Shown: piece after piece, positions 6,717-28,955 of the stretch
Layout of the letters: every line of letters starts with the position of its first letter
How positions within the stretch are numbered: the stretch's first letter is position 1
Origin: an uncultured bacterium
Lineage (GTDB): Bacteria > Eisenbacteria > RBG-16-71-46 > JABDJR01
Length of the DNA stretch: 28,956 nt
Direction: 5' to 3'
Assembly (NCBI GenBank): GCA_964633885.1
Contig: CAZWKH010000001.1
Location: 1 to 28,956 of the forward strand
Notes under the pieces: generated by a model
Seen by the model: only the letters and a program-made list of their open reading frames with translations
What the model was told of the DNA's origin: nothing
Database searches by the model: none
Position numbers and translations under genes: made by a program

Positions 6717-6748
6717 AGAAGCACCTCCGGCGGAAGAACCGCGGACAT

Positions 6749-8008: not shown

Positions 8009-8015
8009 CGTCTGC

Positions 8016-8591
8016 TCACCCCTTGCCGCCGGAGGGCCTGGTCGTGTCGTCCGGTGCGGCCGGCCATGCCGGATGCCCGGGGTCCTCGCCGCGCAGGAGG
8101 CGGACCGCGTGGGGGAGCAGGGGGATCAGGATGTCCAGGCACTGTGCGACCCCGCGCGGGCTTCCGGGAAGGTTCACGATCAGGGTGCGGCCATGGATGC
8201 CCGCCACCCCGCGTCCGAGCGGCGCGAAGCGCGCCACCCGCGCGGTCTCGCGGCGCAGGTGCTCGGCGAGCCCCGGCGCTTCGCGCTCGAGGACATCGCG
8301 GGTCGCTTCCGGCGTCACATCCCGCTCCGCGAAGCCGGTGCCGCCGCTGGTGACGATGAGCTCCGCGCCGCGGCCGGCAAGAGCGCGCAGTCGCTCGGCT
8401 ATGGCGGGGCGGTCGTCGGGCGCCGTCTCCAGGGCAAGGATCTCCGCCCCCGCCGCGGCGAGAAGCCGTTGTGCCTCCGGGCCGCTCAGATCTTCCCGCT
8501 CGCCCCTGCTCACGCGGTCCGAGACCACCAGCACCGCGGCGCGGACCGGCGCCGGGCCGGCGGGGTTCCGCGGTGAGCCGGCAGGGGTCAC
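8016..8591 (-). CDS. mog: MogA/MoaB-family molybdopterin adenylyltransferase
   Basis: VLVVSDRVSRGEREDLSGP, TSGGTGFAERDVTPEAT and VNLPGSPRGV motifs. GTGA overlap with the moaC stop. Confidence 0.92.
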   Translation of the reverse strand: MTPAGSPRNPAGPAPVRAAVLVVSDRVSRGEREDLSGPEAQRLLAAAGAEILALETAPDDRPAIAERLRALAGRGAELIVTSGGTGFAERDVTPEATRDVLEREAPGLAEHLRRETARVARFAPLGRGVAGIHGRTLIVNLPGSPRGVAQCLDILIPLLPHAVRLLRGEDPGHPAWPAAPDDTTRPSGGKG

Positions 8592-9094
8592 CGCGAGGCC
8601 TCGGCGGGGTCCACAAAACCCTCGCGCACCCAGCGCCCGCTCTTCCCGCCCTCTTTCAGCTCCAGGCGGACCAGCTCGACATGGGCGTCGCGGTCCACTC
8701 CCTTGACCATGTCGATCAGCGCGAGAGCCGCCACCGAGGCCGCGGTGAGCGCCTCCATCTCCACGCCGGTGGCCGCGCGGGTGCGCGCCTCGGCCAGGAT
8801 GCGCACCGCCTGCTGCTGCGGCATGGGCAGCACCTCCACGGAGATATGATCGAGGGGAAGGGGATGGCAGAGGGGGATGAGTTGCGGGGTGAGCTTGGCG
8901 CCGCCGATGCCGGCGAGACGGGCCACGGCGAGAGCGTCTCCCTTGGGCAGATCGCCATGGGCGATGAGGGCGAGGGTTTCCGGGCGCAGATGCACCCAGG
9001 CGGAGGCGATGGCGCGACGGGAGGTGACGGCCTTGTGGCCCACATCCACCATGCGCGCCTTGCCCTGCCGGTCGAGATGGGGTAGCTCTGTCAT
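8588..9094 (-). CDS. moaC: Cyclic pyranopterin monophosphate synthase MoaC
   Basis: HLDRQGKARMVDVGHK, LIPLCHPLPLD, TGVEMEALTAASVAALALIDMVK and KEGGKSG motifs. Confidence 0.97.
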   Translation of the reverse strand: MTELPHLDRQGKARMVDVGHKAVTSRRAIASAWVHLRPETLALIAHGDLPKGDALAVARLAGIGGAKLTPQLIPLCHPLPLDHISVEVLPMPQQQAVRILAEARTRAATGVEMEALTAASVAALALIDMVKGVDRDAHVELVRLELKEGGKSGRWVREGFVDPAEASR

Positions 9095-11864: not shown

Positions 11865-13259
11865 CTATCGCGCCGGTCTGCCCTCCCGCGGCGGATCCGC
11901 CGGCGTTCCCTTGACCCCCTCCACATCGCGGGGGATGAGCACGAGGATCTCGGCCTCGCCGGGGTCGCCGGTGCGGCTGCGCACCAGGGTGGCCTTGCGT
12001 CCCCGGAAGGGATCGGTGGAGAGAATCACCGTCTTCTCGTCCTCGGGCTCCTTGCGGAAAGCGCGCACCGCCTCGACCAGCACCGGGTCGGGCCAGACCT
12101 GATCGAAGGGAAGCGCCACCGAGGCCAGGCCCTGGATGCCCAGCTCGTCGCGCAGCGCGCGGCTGACGAAGGCGAGATGGTCCTGGGGGGCGATCCCGGC
12201 CACATAGGTGTGGCCGCCCTCGGCCAGGGCCTCGACCCTCTGCACTCCCGCGCGATGGAAGCGCCGGCGCGTCTCCTCCACCTCGCGATCCTGCTCCAGG
12301 TGCTCCTGGAGGAAGCCGGCCAGGAGGCCCACCTCGTCGTTGCTGACGGGGATGGCCGCCGGACGCGGCCCCGAGGTGCGCGCGTAGTGGATCAGGCGGG
12401 TGAGGCGGCGGATGGGCAGCAGGATCCACTTGGGGGCCGTGAAAGCCACCGCCAGGGCCAGCACCAGGGCGACGAGGATGATGGAAATGAGGTTGCGCAC
12501 GGTCAGCGACAGCGTGCGCTCCAGTCCGGCGCGCTGCAGGGCGAGGTGGCGGGTCGCCTGGATGTAGACCTCGTGGGAGAGATCCTCGATGCGCGCCTCC
12601 GAGCGCATCACCACCTGGAGCAGCGAGTCCGCCTCGGTGCCCGGGCCCAGGGTGACGGTGAGGATGTCGTCCAGGTTGAGCAGGTAGAACCGGGCCTCGC
12701 GCAGCGCCTCTTCGCGATCCCGCGGGTTCGCAGAGCGCTCAGCGCGGCCCCGCAGGGTGAGGAACCGAGTGCGCGCGTCCTCGACCTGCTTGACATGGGA
12801 GAGCACGGTCTGCGGCCGCGGCAGGGGGCCGAGGGCGACCAGGTCGCGCGAGGCGTTCTCGTAGGTGCGCGCGAGGATCAGGACGCGGTCGAACTCCTCC
12901 GGGTCGTAGGGCCAGAGATCGCGGGCGTTCTCCACCACCACGCGCACGAACCCGGCGGCGGCGATGGCGTCCTCGCCGCGGACGGGCTCCCCGGTGTAGA
13001 GGAAGTCAAGGCGCGCCAGGTGGGACTGCGCCAGGGCGAGCTGCACATCGTCCACCATGAGCGACGGATCGACCCCGCCGCCCAGGATGCTGGAGACGGC
13101 CTGGCGGGCGCGGTGGAGCGCCACCAAGGAGCCGGCGACGGGGATCAGCGAGAGGAGCACGAGCAGGATGAGGGTCCACACCAGCTTCGCGCGCACGGTG
13201 AGCGCGCGCTGCCGCGGGAGGACCCGCTCCTGCCAGGGCGTGCTGCTAAGGGGGGCCAT
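11865..13259 (-). CDS. Membrane protein TM-extracytoplasmic helical domain-TM-HAMP-PAS-like, with no catalytic output domain
   Basis: LTVRAKLVWTLILLVLLSL (TM1), a ~200 aa helical loop, ISIILVALVLALAVAF (TM2), ILLPIRRLT...SNDEVGLLA (HAMP), then a PAS-like segment ending EILVLIPRDVE. Starts 2 nt after the ktrA stop. Confidence 0.8.
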   Translation of the reverse strand: MAPLSSTPWQERVLPRQRALTVRAKLVWTLILLVLLSLIPVAGSLVALHRARQAVSSILGGGVDPSLMVDDVQLALAQSHLARLDFLYTGEPVRGEDAIAAAGFVRVVVENARDLWPYDPEEFDRVLILARTYENASRDLVALGPLPRPQTVLSHVKQVEDARTRFLTLRGRAERSANPRDREEALREARFYLLNLDDILTVTLGPGTEADSLLQVVMRSEARIEDLSHEVYIQATRHLALQRAGLERTLSLTVRNLISIILVALVLALAVAFTAPKWILLPIRRLTRLIHYARTSGPRPAAIPVSNDEVGLLAGFLQEHLEQDREVEETRRRFHRAGVQRVEALAEGGHTYVAGIAPQDHLAFVSRALRDELGIQGLASVALPFDQVWPDPVLVEAVRAFRKEPEDEKTVILSTDPFRGRKATLVRSRTGDPGEAEILVLIPRDVEGVKGTPADPPREGRPAR

Positions 13260-15871: not shown

Positions 15872-16522
15872 ATGGGCGGGAAGGATCTGGCAAACCGGGT
15901 GGAGGGCTTCGTCCTGGCGGGCGGCCGGTCGAGCCGCTTCGGGACCGACAAGGCCCTGGCCCTGGCCGGCGGGGTGCCTCTCCTCTCCCGCGCTCTGGGG
16001 GAACTGGCGGCCCTGGGGATCCGGGCCAGGATTGTCGCCCCCGACCCGGTCCCCTACGCCGCGCTGGGCGCGGAGGTGGTCTCCTCGGAGCGGCCGGGGC
16101 TGGGCCCCGGCGAGGCCCTGCGGGCCCTTCTGCGGGTCTGCGCCGCCCCCTGGGCGCTGGTCCTGGCCACCGACATGCCGGGAGTGGACGCCGGGGTGAT
16201 CCGGGCGCTGGCCGCCGGCCTCCCCCGGGAAGAGCCCCCCGAGGGCCCGGCCGCGGTCTGCTTCGGCGAGGCCTCGGGGCGCCGCCACCCACTGCCGGGG
16301 CTCTATCACCGGTCCCTCGGGGGGCTCCTCGAGACCCTTCCCGGGGATGTCTCCCTGAGGGGGGTCCTGGAGGAGGCCTCGCCGCGGATCCTCCCCGCCG
16401 ATCCGGAGGATCTCGCCCCCCGCCTGGCCAACCTGAACACGCCGCTGGACATGGAGCGGTTCGAGCGCCTGCGGCCCCGGCTGGCGGCCTTCCCAGGCCC
16501 CGGCGGGCCAGAATCCGATTGA
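15872..16522 (+). CDS. mobA: Molybdenum cofactor guanylyltransferase MobA
   Basis: FVLAGGRSSRFGTDKA, GPGEAL, LVLATDMP, RRHPLPGLY and LANLNTPLD motifs. Confidence 0.9.
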   Translation: MGGKDLANRVEGFVLAGGRSSRFGTDKALALAGGVPLLSRALGELAALGIRARIVAPDPVPYAALGAEVVSSERPGLGPGEALRALLRVCAAPWALVLATDMPGVDAGVIRALAAGLPREEPPEGPAAVCFGEASGRRHPLPGLYHRSLGGLLETLPGDVSLRGVLEEASPRILPADPEDLAPRLANLNTPLDMERFERLRPRLAAFPGPGGPESD

Positions 16523-16547
16523 CACTCCCGGAGGCCCGACCTAGACT
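16519..16547 (+). promoter_or_regulatory. Sigma70-type promoter of the nuo operon
   Basis: TTGACA (16519-16524, overlapping the mobA stop codon), 17 bp spacer, TAGACT (16542-16547). Confidence 0.8.
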
Positions 16548-16557
16548 GGCGCGTCGT

Positions 16558-16575
16558 TTGTGCAAAGTTTCACAA
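16558..16575. promoter_or_regulatory. Rex-type operator (palindrome TTGTGCA-AAGT-TTCACAA)
   Basis: One mismatch to the Rex consensus TTGTGAA-N4-TTCACAA. AT-rich in a very GC-rich background, and 10 nt downstream of the -10 element (a repressor position). CRP/FNR-family TGTGA-N6-TCACA sites have the same geometry. Confidence 0.7.
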
Positions 16576-16648
16576 GTGAATCCCCCGCAGTAGGTTGCCG
16601 GTAGGGGACCCCCGCCGGACCGGGGCCGGGGACTTCCGAAGAGCACCT

Positions 16649-17047
16649 ATGGCAACAGACTACGTACCCATTCTGGTCATGCTGGTCCTGACGAGCGCCT
16701 TCTCCGTGATCGCGCTGGTGCTCGCCTGGTTCCTGGGGCCCTCCAAGCCGGACGCCTCCAAGAACGCTCCCTATGAGTGCGGCATGCCGCCGGTGGGCGA
16801 CGCGCGGGAGCGATATAGCGTCCGCTTCTATGTCGTGGCGATGCTCTTTATCGTCTTCGATCTGGAGACGGTCTTCCTGTATCCATGGGCCGTCATCTTC
16901 CGCCAGCAGGCGATGTTCTTCTTCCTGGAGATGCTGGTCTTCCTGGGCATCCTGCTGGTGGGGTACATCTATGTCTGGCGGATGGGGGCCCTGGACTGGA
17001 GCTCCCACAAGGACCAGGTCATCTGGGGGACCAAGCATGAAGCCTGA
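16649..17047 (+). CDS. nuoA: NADH-quinone oxidoreductase subunit A
   Basis: KNAPYECG, FYVVAMLFIVFDLETVFLYPWA, YVWRMGALDW. Start at ATG 16649. Confidence 0.96.
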   Translation: MATDYVPILVMLVLTSAFSVIALVLAWFLGPSKPDASKNAPYECGMPPVGDARERYSVRFYVVAMLFIVFDLETVFLYPWAVIFRQQAMFFFLEMLVFLGILLVGYIYVWRMGALDWSSHKDQVIWGTKHEA

Positions 17048-17663
17048 GCCGAAGAGCACCCAGGGCAAGCGCTACGGCGGGCCCCAGACTCCGGCGGGGC
17101 TCTCGCCCTACGGGATCCGGGGCAAGGCGGAAGCCGAGGCCGGGGCGGCGGAGCCGCCCCGCAGCTCCTCTCGCACCGATCTCGAGTACGCCGAGCGCAG
17201 CGCGCTCGCCCTGCGCGAGCAGTTCGGGCCGGAGCTCCTCCAGATCATCCACTTCCGGGGCGAGTGGACGGCGGTTCTGAAGCCGGAGCGGGTCCTCGAG
17301 TTCATGCGGTTCCTCCGCGACACCTGGGGTTACCGGATGTGTCACGACGTGACCTCGGTGGACCTCTACCCCGAGGAGCCGCGGTTCATGGTGGTCTACC
17401 ACCTGCTCAACCTGGACCAGTCGGTGCGTTTCCGCGTGAAGTGCCCTCTGGCCGGGGAGACTCCCGAGATCGACTCGGTGGTGCCGCTCTGGCCGGGCGC
17501 CGACTACGCCGAGCGCGAGGTGTTCGATCTCATGGGGATCCGCTTCCGCGGCCACCCCGATCTCAGGCGGATCCTGATGCCGGACGACTACCCGCATCAC
17601 CCGCTGCGCAAGGACTTCCCGCTGACCGGGTTCCCGGTCGGCATCGACGCCCTCAAGGACTGA
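17037..17663 (+). CDS. nuoC: NADH-quinone oxidoreductase subunit C (stand-alone, not a C/D fusion)
   Basis: DVTSVD...RFMVVYHLL, WPGADYAEREVFDLMGIRFRGHPDLRRILMPDDYPHHPLRKDFPL. ATG 17037 overlaps the end of nuoA. Confidence 0.95.
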   Translation: MKPEPKSTQGKRYGGPQTPAGLSPYGIRGKAEAEAGAAEPPRSSSRTDLEYAERSALALREQFGPELLQIIHFRGEWTAVLKPERVLEFMRFLRDTWGYRMCHDVTSVDLYPEEPRFMVVYHLLNLDQSVRFRVKCPLAGETPEIDSVVPLWPGADYAEREVFDLMGIRFRGHPDLRRILMPDDYPHHPLRKDFPLTGFPVGIDALKD

Positions 17664-17742
17664 GGGCACCCATCGCGCCCTGAAGCCGCCCCGCGTCGCG
17701 CCGCCCGGACGGGGGATCTCGCGGGCACGACGAAGAGGAACC

Positions 17743-18402
17743 ATGTCAAAGCTCTCGGCAGAAACCCAGGAGAAGATTCGCGCTCTCCGGGAACGCTATC
17801 CCCAGCGCCGTTCGGCGGTCATGCCCGCGCTGCACTACGCGCAGGCGGACGCCGGCCATCTCGACGAGGAGACGCTCGTTCTGGTGGCGGAGCTCCTCGA
17901 GCTTCCCCCCAACATGACCACCGAGGTGGTGGGCTTCTACACCATGTTCGACCGCGTGCCGCGGGGGCGCTACAAGATCGAGGTCTGCCGCAACCTCTCC
18001 TGCGCCCTGAAGGGGGCGCAGAAGATGGTGGACCACCTCGAGCGCACCCTCGGGATCAAGGTGGGAGAGACCACCCCCGACGGCAAGTTCACGCTGCTCG
18101 AGGCCGAGTGTCTCGGCGCCTGCGGCTACGCGCCGATGATGCAGATCGGCCCCTACTACTTCGAGAACCTGAGCCGCGCGGATGTGGACGCCATCCTCGA
18201 GGCGCTACGCCGCGACGCGGTGCCGCCGGTCGCCCCCGCGGGCTACCTGGAGATGGACGGGGTCGTGCCGGAGCGGGGGAGCGACGGCCGGGCGATCCCG
18301 ACCGCGAGCGAGGCGATCGCGAAGCATCTGGCGGTGCCGCCGGCTCCCCGGCCGGCCGGCGCCGAGACCGCCCCGGCGGGGACGAAGGAGGAAGGGCAGT
18401 GA
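17743..18402 (+). CDS. nuoE: NADH-quinone oxidoreductase subunit E
   Basis: VVGFYTMF, VCRNLSC and ECLGACGYAPM 2Fe-2S ligands; C-terminal extension. Confidence 0.96.
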   Translation: MSKLSAETQEKIRALRERYPQRRSAVMPALHYAQADAGHLDEETLVLVAELLELPPNMTTEVVGFYTMFDRVPRGRYKIEVCRNLSCALKGAQKMVDHLERTLGIKVGETTPDGKFTLLEAECLGACGYAPMMQIGPYYFENLSRADVDAILEALRRDAVPPVAPAGYLEMDGVVPERGSDGRAIPTASEAIAKHLAVPPAPRPAGAETAPAGTKEEGQ

Positions 18403-19697
18403 GCAAGGGGGCGCTGCGGGTCACCACCGCCAACACCGACAGGCCGCGCTCCTTCACCCTCGCGGTGGCCGAGCAGCATGGGGCCTACCAGGCCCTGCGC
18501 AAGGCGCTCAAGGAGTACAAGCCCGACCAGGTCATCCAGATCGTCAAGGACTCGGGCATCCGCGGGCGCGGCGGCGCGGGATTTCCCGCCGGCGCGAAGT
18601 GGGGGTTCGTGCCCAAGAGCATCCCCAAGCCCCGCTATGTCGCCTGCAACGCCGACGAGAGCGAGCCGGGCACCTTCAAGGACCGGATCATTCTCGAGCG
18701 GGACCCGCACCTCCTGATCGAGGGTATCCTCCTGGCCGCCTACGCCATCGAGAGCCACCAGGCCTTCATCTACATCCGTGGCGAGTACGGGCTCCCCATC
18801 CAGCGGGTCTCCGAAGCGGTGCGCGAGGCCTACGCCGCCGGATACCTGGGGAAGAACATCCTGGGCAGCGGGTGGGACTGCGATCTCGCGGTGACGGCGG
18901 GAGGCGGAGCCTACATCTGCGGCGAGGAAACGGGGCTCCTGGACTCCATCGAGGGCAAGCGCGGGCACCCGCGGCTCAAGCCGCCCTTCCCGGCGGTGGT
19001 CGGCCTCTACGGCGGCCCCACCGTGATCAACAATGTCGAGACCCTCTCCTCGGTGCCCGCCATCGTAATGAAGGGTGGCGCGTGGTTCGCGGGGACGGGC
19101 GCGCCGAACTCCTCGGGGCCGCGCATCTTCAATGTGAGCGGCCATGTGGTGAAGCCGGGACTCTACGAGCTCGAGATGGGGGTCACCCTGCGCGAGCTCA
19201 TCTACGACCACTGCGGGGGGATCCGCGACGGCCGGGCGCTCAAGGCGGTCATCCCCGGCGGCGCCTCGACCTCGTTCCTCACCGCCGACCAGATCGACAC
19301 CCCGCTCGACTTCGACTCGCTGGCCAAGGCGGGGTCGGCCATGGGCTCGACCGCGGTGATGGTCATGGACGAGACCACCTGCATCGTGGGCGCCACGCTC
19401 ATCCTGACCCGGTTCTTCGCCCACGAGTCCTGCGGCCAGTGCACCCCCTGCCGCGAGGGGACGCACTGGGCGGAGCGGATCCTGCACCGGTTCGAGCATG
19501 GCGGGGCCAGGCGGGAGGAGATCGACCTCCTCCTCGACATCTGCAGCGAAATGGGCGGAGGGCGCACGATCTGCGCGCTCGCCGACGGCGCCGTCAACCC
19601 GATCCGGAGCAGCATCGAGAAGTTCCGGAGCGAGTACGAAGCGCATGTGGAGAAGGGTTGCCCCCAAGGGGGCCAGCTTTGCGAGGTGGAGTGGTGA
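18399..19697 (+). CDS. nuoF: NADH-quinone oxidoreductase subunit F
   Basis: SGIRGRGGAGFP, CNADESEPGTFKDR, AYICGEETGLLDSIEGKRGHPR, ESCGQCTPCREG, TICALAD. GTG start overlaps the nuoE stop (GTGA). Confidence 0.97.
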   Translation: MSKGALRVTTANTDRPRSFTLAVAEQHGAYQALRKALKEYKPDQVIQIVKDSGIRGRGGAGFPAGAKWGFVPKSIPKPRYVACNADESEPGTFKDRIILERDPHLLIEGILLAAYAIESHQAFIYIRGEYGLPIQRVSEAVREAYAAGYLGKNILGSGWDCDLAVTAGGGAYICGEETGLLDSIEGKRGHPRLKPPFPAVVGLYGGPTVINNVETLSSVPAIVMKGGAWFAGTGAPNSSGPRIFNVSGHVVKPGLYELEMGVTLRELIYDHCGGIRDGRALKAVIPGGASTSFLTADQIDTPLDFDSLAKAGSAMGSTAVMVMDETTCIVGATLILTRFFAHESCGQCTPCREGTHWAERILHRFEHGGARREEIDLLLDICSEMGGGRTICALADGAVNPIRSSIEKFRSEYEAHVEKGCPQGGQLCEVEW

Positions 19698-20692
19698 CGC
19701 TCGAATGGTGGATTGAGATCCTCGCCAAAGTTCTGGTGATCTTCGTCGTCGTGCTCACCTCGGTCGCCTACCTGACGCTCGTGGAGCGGCGGGTCGTGGC
19801 GCTCATCCAGGCGCGACTCGGTCCCAACCGGGCCGGCCCCCAGGGGCTCTTCCAGCCCTGGGCGGACGCCCTCAAGCTCATGTCCAAGGAGCAGGTGATC
19901 CCGACCCAGGCCGACCGCCTGCTCTTCCTGGCCGCTCCCGTCCTCTCGATGGTGCCCGCGCTCATGGCCTTCGCGGTTATCCCCTTCGGCGAGTCCATCC
20001 ACATCTTCGGCCGCGACGTCACCTTCCGGCTGACCGACGTCAACATCGCCGTGCTCTTCCTGCTCGCGCTGTCGAGCATAGGGGTCTACGGAATCTTCCT
20101 GGGCGGGTGGGCGTCCAACAACAAGTACGCGCTCATGGGCAGCCTCCGGTCCTCGGCCCAGATGATCTCCTACGAGCTCACCATGGGGCTCGTGGTGGTC
20201 TCCATCGTGATGACGGTGGGGTCCTTCAGCCTCGTGCAGATCGTGGCCGCCCAGCACAAGCTGCCGTTCATCCTGACCCAGCCGCTGGCCTTCGTCCTGT
20301 TCCTGATCGCCTCCTTCGCGGAGATCAACCGCGTGCCCTTCGATCTGCCGGAGGCGGAGCCGGAGCTGGTGGCCGGCTACCACACCGAGTACAGCGGCAT
20401 GCGCTTCGCCCTGTACTTCCTGGGCGAGTACGCGAACCTGATCACCATGTCCGCGATGGTCACCGTGCTCTTCCTGGGCGGATGGCTGGTGCCCTGGCCC
20501 AGCCCGCTGTGGCTCTCCCCGTTGTGGTTCTGCATCAAGGTGTTCGTGCTCGTCTTCTTCGCCATCTGGACCCGCGGGACCCTCCCGCGGTTCCGCTTCG
20601 ACCAGCTGATGGCGATCGGCTGGAAGTTCCTGCTTCCGCTGGCCCTGTTCAACGTCTTCGCGACCGGGTTGTTCCTGGCGCTGAAGGGATAG
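19694..20692 (+). CDS. nuoH: NADH-quinone oxidoreductase subunit H
   Basis: VERRVVALIQARLGPNRAG, QPWADALKLMSKE, LRSSAQMISYE, EINRVPFDLPEAEPELVAGYHTEYSG, RFRFDQLM. GTG start overlaps the nuoF stop. Confidence 0.97.
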   Translation: MTLEWWIEILAKVLVIFVVVLTSVAYLTLVERRVVALIQARLGPNRAGPQGLFQPWADALKLMSKEQVIPTQADRLLFLAAPVLSMVPALMAFAVIPFGESIHIFGRDVTFRLTDVNIAVLFLLALSSIGVYGIFLGGWASNNKYALMGSLRSSAQMISYELTMGLVVVSIVMTVGSFSLVQIVAAQHKLPFILTQPLAFVLFLIASFAEINRVPFDLPEAEPELVAGYHTEYSGMRFALYFLGEYANLITMSAMVTVLFLGGWLVPWPSPLWLSPLWFCIKVFVLVFFAIWTRGTLPRFRFDQLMAIGWKFLLPLALFNVFATGLFLALKG

Positions 20693-20777
20693 CCGGCCGC
20701 GGGCCGGCCGCCCCGATGGGGGGCGACGGCGCGGCGGGCACTGGATCCGGCGGCGGGCCGCCGGGTGGGGGTACGAC

Positions 20778-21326
20778 GTGGCTCTAGTCGGTTTCATCCT
20801 GATGGCCGTCATGGCCGTCGCGTGCGCCCTCGCTGTGGTGTTCCAACGCAACGCGCTCTACAGCGCGCTCAGCCTGGTGGGGGTGTTCGCGGCCACGGCG
20901 GGGATCTACCTGCTGCTCCAGGCGCCGTTCCTGGCCGTCCTGCAGATCATGGTCTACGCCGGCGCCATCATGGTGCTCTTCGTCTTCGTGATCATGCTCC
21001 TCTCGATCAGCTACGCGGAATCCGGCGAGGCGGAGGGCGTTCCTCCCGGCTGGAGGCGCGTGCTGGGGCTGGTGCTGGGAAGCGTCGTCCTCATCCAGCT
21101 GGCGTTCCTGGGGGGGACCCTGGTCCTCAGCGGGGCCACGGGAGATTTCGTGGGTCCCCGGCTGGGGAGCGCCGAGAGCGTGGGGATGACCCTGTACACC
21201 CGGTACATCTATGCGTTCGAGGTGGCCTCGATCCTCCTGCTGGTGGCGATCGTGGGCGCGGTGGCCATCACCCGCCGGCAGGGGCGCGGACTCGGGGGCC
21301 ATGTGGGCGTCGAGGAGGAGTCGTAA
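20778..21326 (+). CDS. nuoJ: NADH-quinone oxidoreductase subunit J
   Basis: APFLAVLQIMVYAGAIMVLFVFVIMLL, FEVASILLLVAIVGAV. Confidence 0.95.
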   Translation: MALVGFILMAVMAVACALAVVFQRNALYSALSLVGVFAATAGIYLLLQAPFLAVLQIMVYAGAIMVLFVFVIMLLSISYAESGEAEGVPPGWRRVLGLVLGSVVLIQLAFLGGTLVLSGATGDFVGPRLGSAESVGMTLYTRYIYAFEVASILLLVAIVGAVAITRRQGRGLGGHVGVEEES

Positions 21327-21631
21327 TGTCCGTGCCCATTGCGTACTACCAGATTCTGGCCGCGGCGCTGTTCGCCATCGGCGTGGCCGGCGTGATCTTC
21401 CGCCGCAACATCCTCGTGATCTTCATGTGCGTGGAGTTGATGTTGAACGCCGCCAACATCTCGCTGGTGGCGTTCGGGCGGGCGCTCAACTCGCCCGACG
21501 GCCAGGTGCTCGTGTTCTTCGCGCTGGCGGTCGCCGCCGCCGAGGTCTCGGTGGGGCTCGCCATCATCATCGACCTCTTCCGCAAGGAGGGGACGGTGGA
21601 CATCAACCAAGTCAGCTTGCTGAAGGGGTAG
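21326..21631 (+). CDS. nuoK: NADH-quinone oxidoreductase subunit K
   Basis: RRNILVIFMCVELMLNAAN, VAAAEVSVGLAII. TAATG overlap with nuoJ. Confidence 0.96.
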   Translation: MSVPIAYYQILAAALFAIGVAGVIFRRNILVIFMCVELMLNAANISLVAFGRALNSPDGQVLVFFALAVAAAEVSVGLAIIIDLFRKEGTVDINQVSLLKG

Positions 21632-21635
21632 GGCG

Positions 21636-23612
21636 GTGTTGAACGCGTTCTGGCTGATTCCGATCCTGCCGCTCCTGGGTTTTGTCATCAACGGCCTGGG
21701 GCTGAAGTGGATGCCCCGCAAGCTCGCCGGCTACCTGGCCTGCGCGTCGGTGGGGGCCGCCTTCCTCATCGCCGCCGGGGCCTTCCTGGAGCTGCGCGGG
21801 CTGCCGGTCGAGGACCGCGCGATCACGAAGGTCCTGTTCCCCTGGATCGCCGCCGGCAGCTTCCAGGTGAATGTGGCCTTCCTGTGGGATCCGCTCTCCG
21901 CGGTGATGGCGCTGGTGGTGAGCGGCGTGGGCTTCCTCATCCATGTGTACAGCCTGGGCTACATGGCCCACGACCCCGGCTACAAGCGCTACTTCACCTA
22001 CCTGAACCTGTTCACCTTCGCCATGCTGACCCTGGTCCTGGCCGACAACTTCCTCCTGTTGTTCGTGGGCTGGGAAGGGGTGGGGCTCTGCTCCTACCTT
22101 CTCATCGGGTTCTGGTACACGAAGGACTCCGCCTCCGACGCGGGCAAGAAGGCCTTCATCGTCAACCGCATCGGCGACTTCGGCGTGCTGATCGGCATGT
22201 TCCTCCTGTTCTGGACCCTGGGGTCGCTGACCTTCGCCGAGGTCTTCCACAAGGCGCCCCTCGTCTACACCGCCGGCACGGCCCTGCCCACCGCGATCGC
22301 GCTTCTCTTCTTCCTGGGCGCGACCGGCAAGTCGGCCCAGATCCCGCTCTTCGTCTGGCTCCCGGACGCCATGGAGGGCCCGACGCCGGTGTCCGCCCTC
22401 ATCCACGCCGCCACCATGGTGACCGCGGGCGTCTACCTGTTCGTGCGGGCCTCGGGCCTCTTCGCCCTGGCCCCCGAGGCGCTCGCCGTGGTGGCCGTGA
22501 TCGGCGCCCTGACGGCCATCTTCGCGGCGACGATCGGCCTGGTGCAGACCGACATCAAGCGCGTTCTGGCCTACTCGACGGTCTCGCAGCTCGGGTACAT
22601 GTTCCTGGCCGTGGGCGCGGGCGCGTTCGTGGCCGCGATCTTCCACCTCATGACCCACGCCTTCTTCAAGGCGCTCCTCTTCCTGGGGTCGGGCTCGGTC
22701 ATCGAGGCCTGCCACCACGAGCAGGACATGCGCAAGATGGGCGGTCTGGGCAAGAAGCTTCCCGTCACGCGGAACACCTTCATCGTCGGCTCGCTGGCGC
22801 TGGCCGGGGTGCCGATCTTCGCCGGGTTCTTCTCCAAGGACGAGATCCTCTACAACACCTTCACCTCCACCGGCCTCGGCGGGCTGGGGAAGGTCCTGTG
22901 GGTGGTGGGCGCAGCGGCGGCCCTCTTGACCGCCTTCTACATCACCCGCGCAGTGGCCTTGACCTTCTACGGTGAGCCTCGCGACCGGCATGTCTTCGAG
23001 CACGCCAAGGAGTCGCCCCGGGTGATGACGGTCCCGCTGGTGATCCTGGCCGTGCTGTCCACGGTGGGCGGGTTCCTGGGGCTGCCGCTCCTGGCCGGGG
23101 CCAACGCGATGCACAACTGGCTGGGGCCGCTGGTGGGCGCCCACGGCGCGCATGGTGCCGGCCACGGGGAGGGCGCCGCCGAGGCGGCGGCCGCGGCCCA
23201 TGGAGGCGGCCATTCCATGGGCCTCGAGCTGGGTCTGATGGCTTTCTCGGTGGCCATCGCCGTGCTGGGCGTCTGGTTCGGCTGGCAGACCTACATCGTT
23301 AAGCCGGGCCGGGCCAAGGCCATGGGCGCGCGCTTCGCCGGCGCCTACAAGGTGCTCTGGAACAAGTACTACGTGGATGAGATCTACGCCGCCGCCGTGG
23401 TGCGGCCGCTGGTGGGATTCTCGAACTTCCTGTGGAAGATCGTCGATGTGGAGTTCGTCGACGGCGCGGTGAACGGGGCCGGCCGGGTGGTGCGCGGGAT
23501 CGGCGGGTTCCTCCGGCCGATTCAGACCGGGATCACAGGCACCTACGCGGCCGCGATCACCGTGGGGGCCATCCTGATCATGGGCTACATGCTGCTGGGA
23601 GGGGGTCGCTGA
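21636..23612 (+). CDS. nuoL: NADH-quinone oxidoreductase subunit L
   Basis: [82 protein letters not shown]. Confidence 0.97.
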
Positions 23613-25189
23613 TGCCGGTCCTGTCCACCATCATCTTCCTCCCCCTTCTGGGCGCGCTGCTCCTGTGGTTCGTGCCCATGCCGGCCAAGGGCCATCGCAT
23701 CTTTTCGTTCCTGATCGCCGTGGTGACCTTTGCCGTCTCGCTGGCGCTGTGGTTCGGCTTCGACCGGGGCACCGCGGAGTACCAGTTCGTGGAGAACATC
23801 CCCTGGATCGACGCCCTGGGGGTGAGCTACCACCTCGGGGTGGACGGGATCAGCCTGCTCCTCGTGCTGTTGACGACGCTGCTGAGCGCCATCGCGATCC
23901 TCGCCTCCTTCAGCGCGGTCACCGACCGGACCCGGGGCTACTACGCCTTCCTGCTCGTCCTGGAGACCGGGATGCTGGGCGTGTTCTGCGCCCTCGACCT
24001 GTTCCTCTTCTATGTGTTCTGGGAGGCCATGCTCATCCCGATGTACTTCCTCATCGGGGTCTGGGGCGGCGAGCGGCGCATCTACGCCGCGGTGAAGTTC
24101 TTCCTCTACACCATGTTCGGCAGCCTGCTCATGCTGGTGGCCATCATCTTCCTGGCCCTGGCCTACAAGGCGCAGACGGGGGTCCTGACCTTCGACCTGG
24201 CCACTCTCTACGGGACGCAACTCACCTTCGCCCAGGAAGTCTGGCTCTTCAGCGCCTTCGCGCTGGCCTTCGCGATCAAGGTGCCCCTCTTCCCGTTCCA
24301 CACCTGGCTGCCGGACGCCCATGTCGAGGCCCCCACCGCCGGCTCGGTGATCCTGGCCGGGGTGCTGCTGAAGATGGGGACCTACGGCTTCGTGCGGTTC
24401 TGCCTGCCGCTCTTCCCGGCGGCGACGGCGGCGGCGATCCCCTGGGTCCTGGCGCTGTCCGTGATCGGCATCATCTACGGGGCGCTGGTGGCGATGGTGC
24501 AGCCCGACCTGAAGAAGCTGGTGGCCTACAGCTCGGTCAGCCACCTGGGCTTCGTCATGCTGGGCATCTTCGCTCTGAACATGCAGGGGATGAAGGGCGC
24601 GCTGCTGCAGATGATCAACCACGGGATCTCGACCGGCGCCCTCTTCCTCATCGTGGGCATGATCTACGAGCGGCGGCACACGCGGCTCATCGAGCGCTTC
24701 GGCGGGATCACCGCCGTGATGCCGCTCTTCGCGGCCTGCTTCATGATCGTGACCCTCTCCTCGATCGGGCTGCCCGGCACCAACGGATTCGTGGGCGAGT
24801 TCCTGGTGCTGCTGGGGGCCTTCGAGTCCCACAAGGTGGCCGCCGTGCTCGCCGCCAGCGGCGTCATCCTCGCCGCCGCCTACATGCTCTGGATGTTCCA
24901 GCGCGTCATGTTCGGGAAGATCCACCACGAGGAGAACAAGGGGCTCAAGGACCTGAACGGCCGCGAATTCGCCACCCTGCTGCCGCTGCTCGTCCTGATC
25001 TTCTGGATCGGCATCTATCCCAAGCCGTTCCTCGACACGATGGAGGCCTCGGTGGTGCATGTGCTGGATCAGGCGGGGGCGCCGGTGACGGAGCCCGCCC
25101 CGGACGGGGGCGAGCACTCGACGCTCCTGGACGGCGGAGCGCGGATGGATGTGGCGCCGCCGGCGGCCGACGCACAGGGGGTGAAGTGA
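23612..25189 (+). CDS. nuoM: NADH-quinone oxidoreductase subunit M
   Basis: [61 protein letters not shown] overlap with nuoL. Confidence 0.97.
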
Positions 25190-26634
25190 TGCCCGGGGTC
25201 TCGATCAACTGGATGGCCATCCTGCCGCAGATCATCCTGGCCGGGGTGGGGTGCGTCGCGCTGCTCATCTCCGCCGGACGGCGCGGGCGCGCGGGGGGCG
25301 GGGTGCTGGGCCTGTGCGCGCTCGGCGCGCTCACCGCCATGGTCGCCGCGGCCACCGTTCCCTCGGGGCCGCCCGCCTTCGCCGGCTCGGTCGCCGTGGA
25401 CGGCATCAGCAAGCTCGTCGGCATGCTCCTGGCCTTCAGCGCGTTCCTGACCCTGCTCATCACTTCCGGTTATGCCCGCCGCTGGGAGGTGGACAGCGGC
25501 GAGTACTACGCGCTCATCCTGTTCTCCACCAGCGGCATGATGGCCATGGCCGCCGGGCTCGACCTGGTCACCATCTTCATCGGGCTCGAGGTGGCCTCCA
25601 TCTCGCAGTACATCCTGGCCTCCTTCCGCTGGCGCCAGGTGCGCAGCACCGAGGCGAGCGTCAAGTACCTGCTGCTCGGCGCGTTCGCGAGCGGGTTCCT
25701 GCTCTACGGCATCGCCCTGGTCTACGGGGCGACCGGCACCACCCACCTCAGCGAGATCGCGACGCAACTGGCCGCAGCCGGCGTGGCGGAGAATCCGCTG
25801 CTCCTGGTCGGGATCGGTTTCCTGCTGGTGGGGTTGGGGTTCAAGGTGGCGGCGGTGCCCTTCCACATGTGGACGCCGGATGTCTACCAGGGCGCGCCGA
25901 CGGTGGTGACCGCGTTCATGGCCGCCGCGCCCAAGGTGGCCGTGTTCGCCGCGCTTCTGCGCCTGCTCGGCGTGAGCTTCGACGCGGCCCGGCCCGGGTG
26001 GACGCCGCTTCTGTGGTGGATGGCCGCGCTGACCATGGTGATCGGGAACATCCTCGCCCTGGTCCAGAAGGACATGAAGCGGATGCTGGCCTACTCCGCG
26101 ATCGCCCACGCCGGCTATGTGCTCGTCTCCCTGGTGGCGGGGTCGGAGCTGGGCGGGATCGGCACCCTCTACTACCTGGTCGTGTACGCGCTCACCACCC
26201 TGGGTGCCTTCGGCGTGGTGGCCCTGGCCGCCCATGAGACGGAGAAGGGCACCGCGATCGAGAGCTTCGCGGGCCTCGGCTTTACCCGCCCCTGGCTGGG
26301 ACTGGCCATGGCCATCTTCATGTTCTCCCTGGCCGGGATCCCTCCCACCGGCGGCTTCGTGGGCAAGTTCTACATCTTCGGCAGCGCGGTGCAGGAGGGG
26401 CAGGTGCTCCTCGCCGTGATCGGCGTCATGGCTTCGCTCATCTCCGTGTACTACTACCTGCGGGTCGTGGTGCTCATGTACATGCGTCCGGCGCCGGCCG
26501 GGGAGCCGACCCTGGTGCGCGCCAACCTCGCCATCGCCACCGCGCTGGTGCTGGCGGTGCTGGGGATCCTCTTCTTCGGGGTGGTCCCGGGACCGCTCTA
26601 CGCCGCCGCGCGCGCCGCCATCGGAGGGATGTAG
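25189..26634 (+). CDS. nuoN: NADH-quinone oxidoreductase subunit N
   Basis: [75 protein letters not shown] overlap with nuoM. Confidence 0.97.
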
Positions 26635-26644
26635 GTCCGGCGCG

Positions 26645-27547
26645 ATGCTGCGGCTCTTCGTTGACAACCTCCTCCCCGTGATCCTGACCGCGGCGGTGGG
26701 CTACGCCCTCGCCGCGCGGGTGCAGGTGCAGGCGCGCTCCCTGGCGCGGGTGGCGTTCCTCGTCTTCTCCCCCTGCCTCGTCTACCAGATCCTCTTCGAG
26801 AGCCGGCTCCCGATCGGGGACATGGCGCGGATGGCCGGGTTCTCCTTCACCGTCCTGCTCCTCCTGGGTGGCGTGGCGTTCCTCGTCGCGCGGGCCATGC
26901 ACCTGCCGCGGACCCTCACCGCGGCGGCCGTGCTGGTGGTGCTCCTGCCCAACGCGGGGAACATCGGGCTGTCCGTCAACTACTTCGCCTTCGGCGACCC
27001 CGGGCTCACCCAGGCCAGCCTTTTCTTCGTCTCCTCCTCGGTGCTCACCTACACGGTGGGGGTGTTCATCGCGTCGCTGGGGAAGTCCGGGGTGCGCGCC
27101 GCCCTGTTCGGGCTGCCCAGGGTGCCCACCGTCTGGGCGGTGACGGCGGCGCTCCTCATGTCCCACCAGGGTTGGGAGTTCCCCTTCCCCCTCGCGCGCA
27201 GCATCAAGCTCCTCTCCGAGGCCTGCATTCCGGTGTTCCTGGTGATCCTGGGGATCGAGCTTCAGGGAGTGCGCTGGGCGGGACGGGCGCGGCCGCTCCT
27301 GGCCGCTACGGCGCTGCGGCTCGTGGGGGGGGCCGTCATGGCGATCCTCGTGGCCCGCGTCTTCGGACTGGAGGGTCCGGCGCGCCAGGCGGGCATCCTC
27401 GAAGCCGCCATGCCCTCGGCGGTGGTCACGATCATCCTCGCCTCCGAGTACGAGGTGGAGTCCTCCTTCGTGACCTCCGTGGTGTTCCTGACCACGCTCC
27501 TCTGCCCCTTCACCCTGACGCCGCTCCTCGCGCTCCTGGGGGCGTGA
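26645..27547 (+). CDS. AEC-family (auxin efflux carrier / malate permease-like) transporter
   Basis: About ten TM helices with the repeated signature PNAGNIGL and AAMPSAV; ACIPVFLVILG. Confidence 0.9.
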   Translation: MLRLFVDNLLPVILTAAVGYALAARVQVQARSLARVAFLVFSPCLVYQILFESRLPIGDMARMAGFSFTVLLLLGGVAFLVARAMHLPRTLTAAAVLVVLLPNAGNIGLSVNYFAFGDPGLTQASLFFVSSSVLTYTVGVFIASLGKSGVRAALFGLPRVPTVWAVTAALLMSHQGWEFPFPLARSIKLLSEACIPVFLVILGIELQGVRWAGRARPLLAATALRLVGGAVMAILVARVFGLEGPARQAGILEAAMPSAVVTIILASEYEVESSFVTSVVFLTTLLCPFTLTPLLALLGA

Positions 27548-28262: not shown

Positions 28263-28703
28263 TCACCCCAGAGCGGCGAGCACCTCCGCAGGGTGGCCGT
28301 TCACATCCACCTTCGAGTAAGCCTGCAGGATCACGCCGTCGGGCCCGATCACATAGGTGATACGATCCGCGTAGGCTTGGTCGGGGTCGGAGGCCGCGTG
28401 GTACGCCATGCCGATCCGTCGCTCCGGGTCGGAGAGGAGCGGGAAGGGGAAGTTGAACTTCCTGGCGAAGGCCTTGTTGTCATGAACCGTGTCGAAGCTC
28501 ACCCCCAACACCACCGCATTCCTGGCTTCGAATTGCTGGATTCCGTCCCGGAACCCTTGTCCTTCGATCGTTCACCCGGGGGTGTCGGCCTTGGGGAAGA
28601 ACCAGAGGATGACCGTCTTTCCCCTGAAATCGGAGAGGCGAACCTTCGCCCCGGTGTGCGCCGTAGCGGTGAATGCAGGCGCGTGCTCGCCGACCTTGAG
28701 CAT
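28263..28703 (-). CDS. bcp: BCP/PrxQ-type peroxiredoxin, selenocysteine at codon 44
   Basis: Track ORFs 28572..28868 and 28263..28514 are one frame joined across TGA at 28574-28572: MLKVGEHAPAF...VILWFFPKADTPG-U-TIEGQGFRD...VLGVSFD...FPFPLLSDP...RITYVIGPDG. The TGA aligns with the peroxidatic Cys of the TPGCT motif. AAGGAGG SD precedes ATG 28703. Confidence 0.9.
28528..28567 (-). promoter_or_regulatory. Bacterial SECIS-like hairpin immediately 3' of the Sec UGA
   Basis: mRNA UGA-ACGA-UCGAA-GGACAA-GGGUUCCG-GGA-CGGAAUCC-AGCAA-UUCGA: 5 bp lower stem, internal loop, 8 bp upper stem (one G-U pair), G-starting apical loop 23 nt after the UGA. Paired by eye. Confidence 0.7.
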
Positions 28704-28757
28704 GGGCACCTCCTTGGGTTGCGGCCGCGGCCGGGCCTGGGGGGGCATCGTCCGGTG

Positions 28758-28955
28758 ATGCGCGGGACCCGCCGCGTGGGGCAGCATATCACGGCGGCGC
28801 TTCTGCTTGCGACGGCGCTGCCGGTGTCGGTGGGCGCGGCGGTGGGGACTCGGCCCGCCACCGCCCACGCGGCCCAGGCCGCTTCGGCGAGCAGCCTGTC
28901 CGACCCGAACTGGACCCCCGTGGGGCAGGGGATCGCGTTCGCCCGGGTCGAGGCC
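28758..28955 (+). CDS. 5' end of a putative secreted protein; runs off the right edge
   Basis: Open frame from ATG 28758: MRGTRRVGQHITAALLLATALPVSVGAAVG...AHAAQAA...DPNWTPVGQGIAFARVEA, signal-peptide-like. Too short to assign a family. Confidence 0.5.
   Translation, partial: MRGTRRVGQHITAALLLATALPVSVGAAVGTRPATAHAAQAASASSLSDPNWTPVGQGIAFARVEA
28783..28791 (-). promoter_or_regulatory. Putative extended -10 promoter (TG-A-TATGCT) for the peroxiredoxin/nitroreductase genes
   Basis: Minus-strand TGATATGCT about 80 nt upstream of the bcp ATG. Confidence 0.4.

What the first reader, a model, noticed from the sequence alone, without database searches (positions are those of the whole stretch)
16649..26634. 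Complex I operon nuoA-C-E-F-H-J-K-L-M-N lacks exactly the Fe-S wire and quinone-site subunits (NuoB, D, G, I)
Seen: at the positions where canonical operons carry these genes there is no room for them. nuoA and nuoC overlap, nuoF and nuoH share a GTGA overlap, and the C-E and H-J gaps are only about 80 bp. The retained genes are intact, with cluster ligands in E and F and the conserved charged residues in A, K, L, M and N, and the promoter is near consensus, so this does not look like decay. Established: NuoG carries N1b/N4/N5, NuoI N6a/N6b, NuoB N2, and NuoD forms the quinone site with NuoB. These are the subunits with hydrogenase or formate-dehydrogenase-type homologues. Inference: the operon makes the NADH-binding tip, the scaffold NuoC and the full proton-pumping arm, while the intervening catalytic wire comes from elsewhere. 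That could be a plain split locus, or a separately regulated and possibly interchangeable module. Split nuo loci are known in other bacteria, so novelty depends on what the rest of the genome holds.
Basis: partly seen in the sequence, partly recalled or inferred. Interest (0 to 1): 0.75.

Follow-up and report, generated by a model that had tools for sequence, protein, structure and literature searches.

The report
Complex I operon missing four genes
This is a healthy respiratory complex I operon from an uncultured Eisenbacteria-type bacterium whose four iron-sulfur and quinone-site genes (nuoB, D, G, I) are absent from the operon across the whole lineage, most likely because they sit elsewhere in the genome, which makes it an unusual gene layout rather than a new enzyme.

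Summary
Window 16649-26634 (+) holds ten intact genes, nuoA-C-E-F-H-J-K-L-M-N. There is no room for nuoB, D, G or I and no remnant of them.

It is not a misassembly or decay:
- The same order occurs in eight lineages of Candidatus Eisenbacteria-like bacteria (NuoN identity 55-84%), several on 0.7-2.4 Mb contigs.
- All ten genes are under purifying selection.
- They share a conserved promoter and a palindromic operator.

The layout is the extreme of a wider trend:
- All 80 acidobacterial loci I fetched read A-C-D-E-F-G-H-J-K-L-M(-N), with B and I out of line.
- Other metagenome loci lack B+G+I, G+I, or I alone.
- A published table already lists nuoB and nuoI as orphan genes, often in several copies, in acidobacterial genomes.

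The best reading is therefore an ordinary 14-subunit NADH:quinone oxidoreductase with a dispersed gene set.

The copy number and context of these genes are unknown, so the "interchangeable module" idea stays untested.

Verdict: a new variant of a known kind, of moderate interest.

The parts
16519..16547 (+). sigma-70-type promoter-like site, TTGACA-17 nt-TAGACT, about 100 nt upstream of nuoA
   Evidence: 10 of 12 matches and the only hit in 16300-27000; shuffles give 0.6; the same TTGACAC-N17-TAGACT is conserved upstream of nuoA in L176, L178, L006, L008 and L094/L095, with TA-variant -10 boxes in L179, L177 and L093.
16558..16575 (.). palindrome TTGTG-CAAAGTTT-CACAA, 10 nt downstream of the -10 box; a candidate operator with CRP/FNR-family spacing
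   Evidence: it occurs once per locus, and only upstream of nuoA, in the window, L176, L178/L004, L006, L008, L094/L095 and L179. The arms are invariant and the centre varies. There is one chance hit in 2.1 Mb of non-Eisenbacteria loci. The binding protein is an inference.
16649..17047 (+). nuoA (132 aa)
   Evidence: PF00507, 5e-40. NuoA models. The YECG loop and FDLE motif are read.
17037..17663 (+). nuoC (208 aa); overlaps nuoA by 11 nt, so no nuoB lies between them
   Evidence: PF00329, 8e-44. TIGR01961 above cutoff; aligns to the complex I 30-kDa subunits; the identical protein and the same A-C junction occur on three independent ENA contigs.
17743..18402 (+). nuoE (219 aa, with an Ala/Pro-rich C-terminal tail); follows nuoC after 79 nt, so no nuoD lies between them
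   Evidence: PF01257, 2e-49. TIGR01958 above cutoff; the four N1a cysteines are present.
18399..19697 (+). nuoF (432 aa)
   Evidence: TIGR01959, 618 bits (cutoff 559); 500 bits to M. smegmatis NuoF (8e9g). The FMN motif and N3 cysteines are conserved.
19694..20692 (+). nuoH (332 aa); GTGA overlap with nuoF, so no nuoG lies between them
   Evidence: PF00146, 8e-126; 321 bits to 8e9g chain H, with the TM5-6 loop glutamates conserved.
20778..21326 (+). nuoJ (182 aa); follows nuoH after 85 nt, so no nuoI lies between them
   Evidence: PF00499, 2e-38; junction sequence.
21326..21631 (+). nuoK (101 aa)
   Evidence: PF00420, 2e-30. NF004320 above cutoff. Both TM glutamates (CVELMLNA, AAAEVSVG) are read.
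21636..23612 (+). nuoL (658 aa)
   Evidence: NF005141, 762 bits (cutoff 556). PF00662 plus PF00361.
23612..25189 (+). nuoM (525 aa)
   Evidence: TIGR01972, 664 bits, and NF004499, 620 bits (cutoff 585).
25189..26634 (+). nuoN (481 aa)
   Evidence: TIGR01770, 449 bits (cutoff 333); orthologues at 67-99% identity in about 48 clusters, two of them named Candidatus Eisenbacteria.

Best explanation
The locus is the main operon of an ordinary proton-pumping NADH:quinone oxidoreductase (complex I, the 14-subunit Nuo type) from a bacterium of the candidate phylum Eisenbacteria/Eiseniibacteriota.

The operon encodes:
- the NADH/FMN entry point (NuoE, NuoF);
- NuoC;
- all seven membrane subunits (A, H, J, K, L, M, N).

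The four subunits that carry the rest of the iron-sulfur chain and the quinone site (NuoG, NuoI, NuoB, NuoD) are not lost. They are encoded at other places in the chromosome, as is already recorded for nuoB and nuoI in Acidobacteria, and they assemble with the products of this operon.

Shown here:
- ten intact genes under selection;
- no room for the four genes and no remnants of them;
- the same order throughout the lineage;
- a conserved promoter and operator;
- graded versions of the same dispersal in other phyla.

Inferred:
- that nuoB, D, G and I exist elsewhere in this genome;
- that the assembled enzyme is a standard complex I.
For: Identity and integrity of the ten genes:
- Cofactor ligands and the residues that face the quinone cavity are conserved.
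- dN/dS is 0.11-0.24 against L176, and 0.19-0.41 against L006 and L178, for every gene.

Not an assembly artefact:
- The identical A-C junction occurs on three independent contigs.
- The same A-C-E-F-H-J-K-L-M-N order is on contigs of 1.72, 2.07, 2.39, 2.04 and 0.72 Mb and on several shorter ones.
- It also occurs in a sister group with only 55% NuoN identity.

Lineage: relatives are named Candidatus Eisenbacteria.

Precedent that such operons belong to working enzymes with orphan genes:
- 80 of 80 acidobacterial loci read A-C-D-E-F-G-H-J-K-L-M(-N), with no NuoB or NuoI within +-10 kb.
- Hausmann et al. 2018 (PMC6018796) list nuoB and nuoI on other scaffolds of the same genomes.
- Metagenome loci show the intermediates A-C-D-E-F-H-J.. 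(L122), B-C-D-E-F-H-J.. (L152, L165, L168) and ..G-H-J.. (L097, L140).
- Dispersed nuo clusters are noted in general terms in PMC3144371.
- A cluster lacking nuoG in Chloroflexus is described in PMC3150298.
Against: - The four genes were not found. None lies in the 28.9-kb window or in about 270 kb of DNA around the operon in relatives.
- I could not search whole genomes, so their existence here rests on inference.
- nuoD outside the main operon was seen in no other lineage I sampled, so the precedent covers B, I and G but not D.
- The NJ tree does not resolve whether the I-less operons share one origin.
Confidence: 0.8

Rival explanations
1. Modular or shared-core reading. NuoB, D, G and I are kept as stand-alone genes because they are regulated separately, or exist in several isoforms, or are shared with a second complex-I-like membrane arm. 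The redox wire and quinone site can then be exchanged while the operon supplies a constant N-module tip and pump.
For: - The genes displaced in independent lineages always come from the set B, D, G, I. They are never E, F or a membrane subunit.
- Acidobacterial genomes hold several operons and several orphan copies. SbA1 has three operons, three nuoB and two nuoI.
- Tang et al. suggested a shared nuoG for Chloroflexus.
Against: - No copy-number or regulatory data exist for Eisenbacteria.
- On each long contig, NuoC and NuoN have only one hit among the best 120, so no closely related second arm was seen.
- The operon's own promoter/operator shows nothing about the orphan genes.
Confidence: 0.13
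2. The operon's products borrow NuoB-, NuoD- and NuoI-like subunits from a hydrogenase-type (group 4 / Ehr) or formate-dehydrogenase-type complex. The result would be a hybrid enzyme with another electron route.
For: One relative (L179/L180) has a six-gene Hyf/Ehr-like cluster 8.5 kb downstream of nuoN. It includes a NuoCD-like large subunit and a fused ferredoxin/NuoB-like small subunit.
Against: - That cluster brings its own HyfB/C/F membrane subunits, so it is self-contained.
- Its best relatives are in other phyla at 64-66% identity, and no orthologue on the other long Eisenbacteria contigs appears among the top hits.
- It is absent from the other downstream regions.
- The NuoH and NuoA residues that face the quinone cavity are of the standard complex I type.
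- It has no NuoG equivalent to link NuoE/F.
Confidence: 0.03
3. Artefact or decay: a misassembled contig, or a degenerating operon that has lost four essential genes.
For: None beyond the missing genes themselves.
Against: - The junctions are reproduced in independent short-read and long contigs from many samples.
- All ten genes are intact and under purifying selection.
- The promoter and operator are conserved.
- There are no pseudogene remnants.
Confidence: 0.01

Closest known systems
Canonical nuoA-N operon of 14-subunit bacterial complex I (E. coli, Thermus thermophilus 4HEA, Mycobacterium smegmatis 8E9G)
   Same: All ten genes are clear orthologues. They keep the canonical relative order, with translational coupling between neighbours. 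The best solved-structure matches are M. smegmatis NuoF (500 bits) and NuoH (321 bits).
   Different: nuoB, nuoD, nuoG and nuoI are not in the operon or within 16.6 kb upstream or 2.3 kb downstream of it.
Acidobacterial nuoACD(EFG)HJKLMN operons with orphan nuoB and nuoI (Hausmann et al. 2018, ISME J, PMC6018796, Table S2b)
   Same: nuoA is followed directly by nuoC, and nuoH directly by nuoJ. B and I are encoded elsewhere.
   Different: Here nuoD and nuoG have also left the operon. The proteins are only about 50-57% identical to the acidobacterial ones, so this is not a close relative. The copy number of the orphan genes here is unknown.
Uncultured-lineage operons A-C-D-E-F-H-J-K-L-M-N (L122) and B-C-D-E-F-H-J-K-L-M-N (L152, L165, L168) from JGI metagenomes
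   Same: nuoG and nuoI are out of line (nuoF next to nuoH, nuoH next to nuoJ). L122 also lacks nuoB.
   Different: These operons keep nuoD, and some keep nuoB. Their taxonomy is unknown. NuoN identity to the window is 45-54%.
Second, loosely arranged complex I cluster of Chloroflexus aurantiacus lacking nuoG (Tang et al. 2011, PMC3150298)
   Same: A complex I gene set in which nuoG is missing and presumed to be supplied from elsewhere.
   Different: That genome also has a complete nuoA-N operon. It keeps B, D and I in the cluster and has nuoE/F far apart.

Membership tests
14-subunit NADH:quinone oxidoreductase (Nuo, complex I) | Seven membrane subunits NuoA, H, J, K, L, M, N with the conserved TM acidic and basic residues | tested here: met
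   The residues are read in the translations. E. coli numbering is from memory.
14-subunit NADH:quinone oxidoreductase (Nuo, complex I) | NADH-oxidising NuoE (N1a) and NuoF (FMN, N3) | tested here: met
14-subunit NADH:quinone oxidoreductase (Nuo, complex I) | NuoG, NuoI, NuoB and NuoD present in the genome | not testable with these tools
   They are absent from the window and from about 270 kb of flanks in relatives.
14-subunit NADH:quinone oxidoreductase (Nuo, complex I) | All 14 genes co-linear in one nuoA-N operon (typical, but not required) | tested here: not met
   ten genes, with junctions that leave no room for the other four.
Acidobacteria-type nuoACDEFGHJKLMN operon with orphan nuoB/nuoI | nuoA directly followed by nuoC, and nuoH directly followed by nuoJ | tested here: met
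Acidobacteria-type nuoACDEFGHJKLMN operon with orphan nuoB/nuoI | nuoD after nuoC, and nuoG after nuoF | tested here: not met
   C is followed by E, and F overlaps H.
11-subunit complex-I-like enzymes lacking the N-module (cyanobacterial NDH-1, Bacteroidetes, Fpo types) | No NuoE/F/G; B, C, D and I in line | tested here: not met
   NuoE and NuoF are present, and B, D and I are absent.
Group 4 membrane-bound [NiFe] hydrogenase / Ehr complexes | Large (NuoD-like) and small (NuoB-like) subunits encoded next to HyfB/C-type membrane subunits | tested here: not met
   The window has no large or small subunit gene. NuoL, M, N and H score best to the Nuo models, not the Hyf models. The Ehr-like cluster is a separate locus in one relative only.

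The most novel reading that the evidence does not exclude
In Eisenbacteria the four subunits that set the redox chain and the quinone chemistry of complex I (NuoB, D, G, I) are kept as stand-alone genes. The same holds, in graded form, in Acidobacteria and other soil lineages. The reason would be that they form an exchangeable or separately regulated core: several isoforms, or one set shared among several membrane arms, combined with a constant NuoE/F tip and pump encoded by the operon.
Probability: 0.12. Interest if true: 0.75.

Novelty: new variant of a known kind. Interest (0 to 1): 0.38.

Why it matters
If the plain reading holds, the value is for annotation and operon evolution.

- Annotation: a whole candidate phylum would be scored as lacking complex I, or as having a partial one, by operon- or module-based pipelines, although it very probably has a complete enzyme.
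- Operon evolution: the genes expelled from nuo operons in unrelated lineages come from the same small set. nuoI leaves most often, then B and G, and here also D. The membrane arm, NuoC and NuoE/F stay together. This pattern has not been discussed in the papers I could find. It may say something about assembly order, gene dosage or separate regulation of the Fe-S subunits.
- A practical handle: the conserved promoter/operator upstream of nuoA gives a direct way to test whether the orphan genes belong to the same regulon.

Tried and rejected
**1. Locating nuoB/D/G/I**
- (a) I scanned genome contigs with the NuoD of the nearest D-containing operon (L011). It returned only Acidobacteriota.
- (b) I scanned metagenome contigs with the window's NuoN.
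- (c) I inspected contexts of relatives 10 kb upstream and downstream of the operon. None of the four genes was there.
- (d) I followed a HyfB-like gene downstream of nuoN in L179. It belongs to an Ehr-like cluster limited to one lineage, not to the missing genes.

**2. Hidden domains.** The NuoC N-terminal extension and the NuoE C-terminal tail hold no cysteines. No Fe-S motif is hidden in the retained genes.

**3. Link to the Mo-cofactor genes.** The idea was that NuoG might be a bis-MGD enzyme. The MoeA/MoaB/MoaC/MobA-like synteny is kept in some lineages but is absent upstream of the operon in L094, L177 and L179. I treat it as coincidental.

**4. Single origin of I-less operons.** An NJ tree of NuoH+L+M gives 100% support for the Eisenbacteria clade, but only 10-31% for the deep nodes. 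The question stays unresolved.

**5. RNA genes.** Rfam and tRNA scans of the window found nothing.

**6. Literature.** No paper in the library describes Eisenbacteria complex I.
Full report
**What is in the window**

The window has about 70% G+C, so mechanical ORF lists are full of spurious frames. I fixed the ten genes of the finding by start/stop mapping and confirmed them with Pfam and NCBIfam:

| gene | coordinates (+) |
|---|---|
| nuoA | 16649-17047 |
| nuoC | 17037-17663 |
| nuoE | 17743-18402 |
| nuoF | 18399-19697 |
| nuoH | 19694-20692 |
| nuoJ | 20778-21326 |
| nuoK | 21326-21631 |
| nuoL | 21636-23612 |
| nuoM | 23612-25189 |
| nuoN | 25189-26634 |

The junctions are as described:
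- A and C overlap by 11 nt.
- The C-E gap is 79 nt.
- E/F and F/H share GTGA overlaps.
- The H-J gap is 85 nt.
- The remaining genes overlap by 1 nt or are 4 nt apart.

No nuoB, D, G or I is present:
- tblastn with reference NuoB, D, G and I at E<=10 finds nothing in the window.
- Motif scans find nothing.
- The other genes of the window are unrelated: pyruvate kinase, a PDZ protease, an S8 peptidase, MoeA/MoaB/MoaC, DsbD, a thioredoxin-like protein, TrkA/TrkH, a MobA-like transferase, an AEC-family transporter and a nitroreductase.

**The retained genes are functional**

- NuoE has its four N1a cysteines.
- NuoF has the GRGGAGFP flavin motif and the CxxCxxC...C ligands of N3.
- NuoH keeps the EAEPELVAGYHTEYSG loop and the other residues that line the quinone cavity.
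- NuoC keeps the 30-kDa core.
- These can be read directly in the translations: the YECG and FDLE motifs of NuoA, both TM glutamates of NuoK, and the Glu/Lys series of NuoL, M and N. The mapping to E. coli residue numbers is from my own knowledge.
- Against the closest relative (L176), dN/dS is 0.11-0.24 for all ten genes. Against two more distant relatives it is 0.19-0.41.

This is not a decaying operon.

**Not a misassembly; a lineage-wide arrangement**

The identical NuoC, with nuoA overlapping it, lies on three independent low-coverage ENA contigs. The same ten-gene order, A-C-E-F-H-J-K-L-M-N, was found in these relatives:

| locus | contig size |
|---|---|
| L176 | 1.72 Mb |
| L004/L178 | 2.07 Mb |
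| L006 | 2.39 Mb |
| L007 | 2.04 Mb |
| L179 | 0.72 Mb |
| L008/L009 | 48 kb and 15 kb |
| L094/L095 (different upstream genes) | 11.5 kb and 14.4 kb |
| L177 (sister group, 55% NuoN identity) | 13.7 kb |

L093 carries the start of the same order before its contig ends. A tblastn map of all loci agrees. Two relatives carry the NCBI name Candidatus Eisenbacteria, phylum Candidatus Eiseniibacteriota. That the window itself belongs to this phylum is an inference from 60-69% identity to the named proteins and from the shared synteny.

**A conserved promoter and operator**

- The promoter-like site TTGACA-17-TAGACT (16519-16547) is the only hit in 10.7 kb.
- It is conserved upstream of nuoA in the relatives, although the surrounding intergenic DNA has diverged.
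- Ten bases after the -10 box lies a palindrome, TTGTG-N8-CACAA (16558-16575).
- Its arms are invariant and its centre varies. It occurs once per Eisenbacteria locus, always at this position, and only once by chance in 2.1 Mb of other loci.
- The spacing matches CRP/FNR-family sites. The identity of the regulator is an inference.
- The position, just downstream of the likely transcription start, would suit a repressor.

**The wider picture**

The nearest NuoC outside the clade (P0057, 55% identity) sits in an operon reading A-C-D-E-F-G-H-J-K-L-M.., which lacks only B and I. I used its NuoD to scan one genome per species. This returned 80 loci, nearly all labelled Acidobacteriota/Terriglobia and three carrying other labels. 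Every one reads A-C-D-E-F-G-H-J-K-L-M(-N), with no NuoB or NuoI within +-10 kb.

This is already on record:
- Hausmann et al. 2018 write of nuoACDHJKLMN operons, one of which per genome also holds nuoEFG.
- Their Table S2b lists nuoB and nuoI on other scaffolds, often in several copies. SbA1 has three operons, three nuoB and two nuoI.

Among 80 metagenome loci fetched with the window's NuoN:
- 19 carry H-I-J and 6 carry H-J.
- 7 carry F-G-H and 4 carry F-H.
- L122 reads A-C-D-E-F-H-J-K-L-M-N.
- L152, L165 and L168 read B-C-D-E-F-H-J-K-L-M-N.
- L097 and L140 read (F)G-H-J-K-L-M-N.

So the genes that leave nuo operons in different lineages come from the same set. The Eisenbacteria layout is the most extreme case seen here and the only one with nuoD out of line.

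An NJ tree of NuoH+L+M supports the Eisenbacteria clade at 100% but does not resolve how the variants are related. Dispersed nuo clusters in general, and a Chloroflexus cluster lacking nuoG, are described in PMC3144371 and PMC3150298.

**Where are nuoB, D, G and I?**

I could not find them.
- The acidobacterial NuoD was too distant to pull out the Eisenbacteria gene. The proteins are only about 50-57% identical between the phyla.
- Both collection scans were then spent.
- Contig look-ups accept only window proteins or earlier protein-search hits, so walking along the long contigs was not possible.
- Ten kb upstream and downstream of the operon in several lineages held none of the four genes.

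One lead was a HyfB-like gene 8.5 kb downstream of nuoN in L179. It opens a six-gene cluster:
- HyfB-like;
- HyfC-like;
- a NuoK-like protein;
- HyfF-like;
- a 490-aa NuoCD-like large subunit;
- a fused 2x[4Fe-4S] ferredoxin / NuoB-like small subunit.

The large subunit lacks both NiFe CxxC motifs. The small subunit keeps its cluster ligands. It is therefore an Ehr-like complex with its own membrane subunits. Its closest relatives are in other phyla, and no orthologue on the other long Eisenbacteria contigs appears among the top hits. It cannot be the general source of B, D and I.

**Interpretation**

NuoE/F cannot pass electrons to quinone without NuoG, I, B and D. NuoH and NuoA keep the residues that build the quinone cavity together with NuoD and NuoB. 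The operon has been conserved and kept under selection across a deep clade. The four genes must therefore exist elsewhere.

The acidobacterial record shows that this kind of split is compatible with normal genomes of respiring bacteria. I put 0.8 on an ordinary complex I with a dispersed gene set.

The more interesting possibility is that the four genes are separate because they are exchanged, shared or separately regulated. The recurrence of the same genes among the displaced ones, and the multiple orphan copies in Acidobacteria, hint at this. Nothing here tests it, and I put about 0.12-0.13 on it. Hybrid use of hydrogenase-type subunits (0.03) and artefact or decay (0.01) are poorly supported or refuted.

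**Novelty and score**

- The enzyme is a known kind.
- The gene organisation, a phylum-wide nuoA-C-E-F-H-J-K-L-M-N operon with B, D, G and I all out of line, was not described in any paper I could find.
- It extends a pattern noted only in passing for Acidobacteria.
- I rate it a new variant of a known kind, with interest 0.38.
- The decisive test is a routine profile search of the complete relatives, together with a scan for the conserved promoter/operator.

Noticed in passing
window 16519-16575; also L176 about 1413-1469, L178, L006, L008, L094, L179 upstream of nuoA: The promoter (TTGACAC-N17-TAGACT) and a palindrome TTGTG-N8-CACAA 10 nt downstream are conserved across Eisenbacteria nuo operons, while the rest of the intergenic DNA has diverged. 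The spacing is of the CRP/FNR type. The site is unique to this position in every locus.
   Followed up: partly
L180 10001-17229 (JGI 3300085377 Ga0679466_0000004), 8.5 kb downstream of nuoN in one relative: A six-gene group-4-hydrogenase-like cluster: HyfB, HyfC, a NuoK-like protein, HyfF, a 490-aa NuoCD-like large subunit without NiFe CxxC motifs, and a fused ferredoxin/NuoB-like small subunit. It looks like an Ehr-type complex. It seems limited to this lineage.
   Followed up: partly
L122; L152, L165, L168; L097, L140 (JGI metagenome contigs): Other uncultured lineages carry nuo operons reading A-C-D-E-F-H-J.., B-C-D-E-F-H-J.. and ..G-H-J... About a quarter of the sampled operons that show both H and J lack nuoI in line. 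Their taxonomy is unknown.
   Followed up: partly
window 6749-9094 (-) and 15872-16522 (+): The Mo-cofactor genes MoeA, MoaB-like and MoaC, and a MobA-like nucleotidyltransferase directly upstream of nuoA, keep this synteny in several relatives (L008, L093). It is absent in others (L094, L177, L179), so the link to nuo is probably coincidental.
   Followed up: partly
window 26645-27547 (+): An AEC-family (Mem_trans) transporter gene starts 10 nt after the nuoN stop, with no terminator-like site between them. The same holds in the closest relative, L176, so it may be co-transcribed with the operon.
   Followed up: no
window 28263-28868 (-): A peroxiredoxin (AhpC/TSA) is split over two reading frames. 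Profile positions 1-40 lie in ORF 28572-28868 and positions 62-122 in ORF 28263-28514. This is either a frameshifted pseudogene or a sequencing error.
   Followed up: partly
L027 6530-6889 (-) (Terriglobia chromosome OZ244973.1): An orphan second nuoA copy lies on the opposite strand 2.1 kb upstream of the acidobacterial nuo operon, with no other nuo gene next to it.
   Followed up: no
L106 11164-13665: A metagenome contig carries ..H-I-J-K-L-M-N and then nuoE and nuoF about 4 kb downstream of nuoN. This is another kind of rearranged nuo locus.
   Followed up: no
window 11865-13259 (-); L004 4632-6017; L006 3740-5113: A conserved protein of about 460 aa with no Pfam match lies next to TrkA/TrkH in several Eisenbacteria loci.
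   Followed up: no
window 4185-6893 (-); also L004, L176, L008: An S8 peptidase carries a C-terminal FlgD_ig domain. The same domain ends several unrelated secreted-looking proteins in the neighbouring loci, so it may be a lineage-typical sorting or anchoring domain.
   Followed up: no
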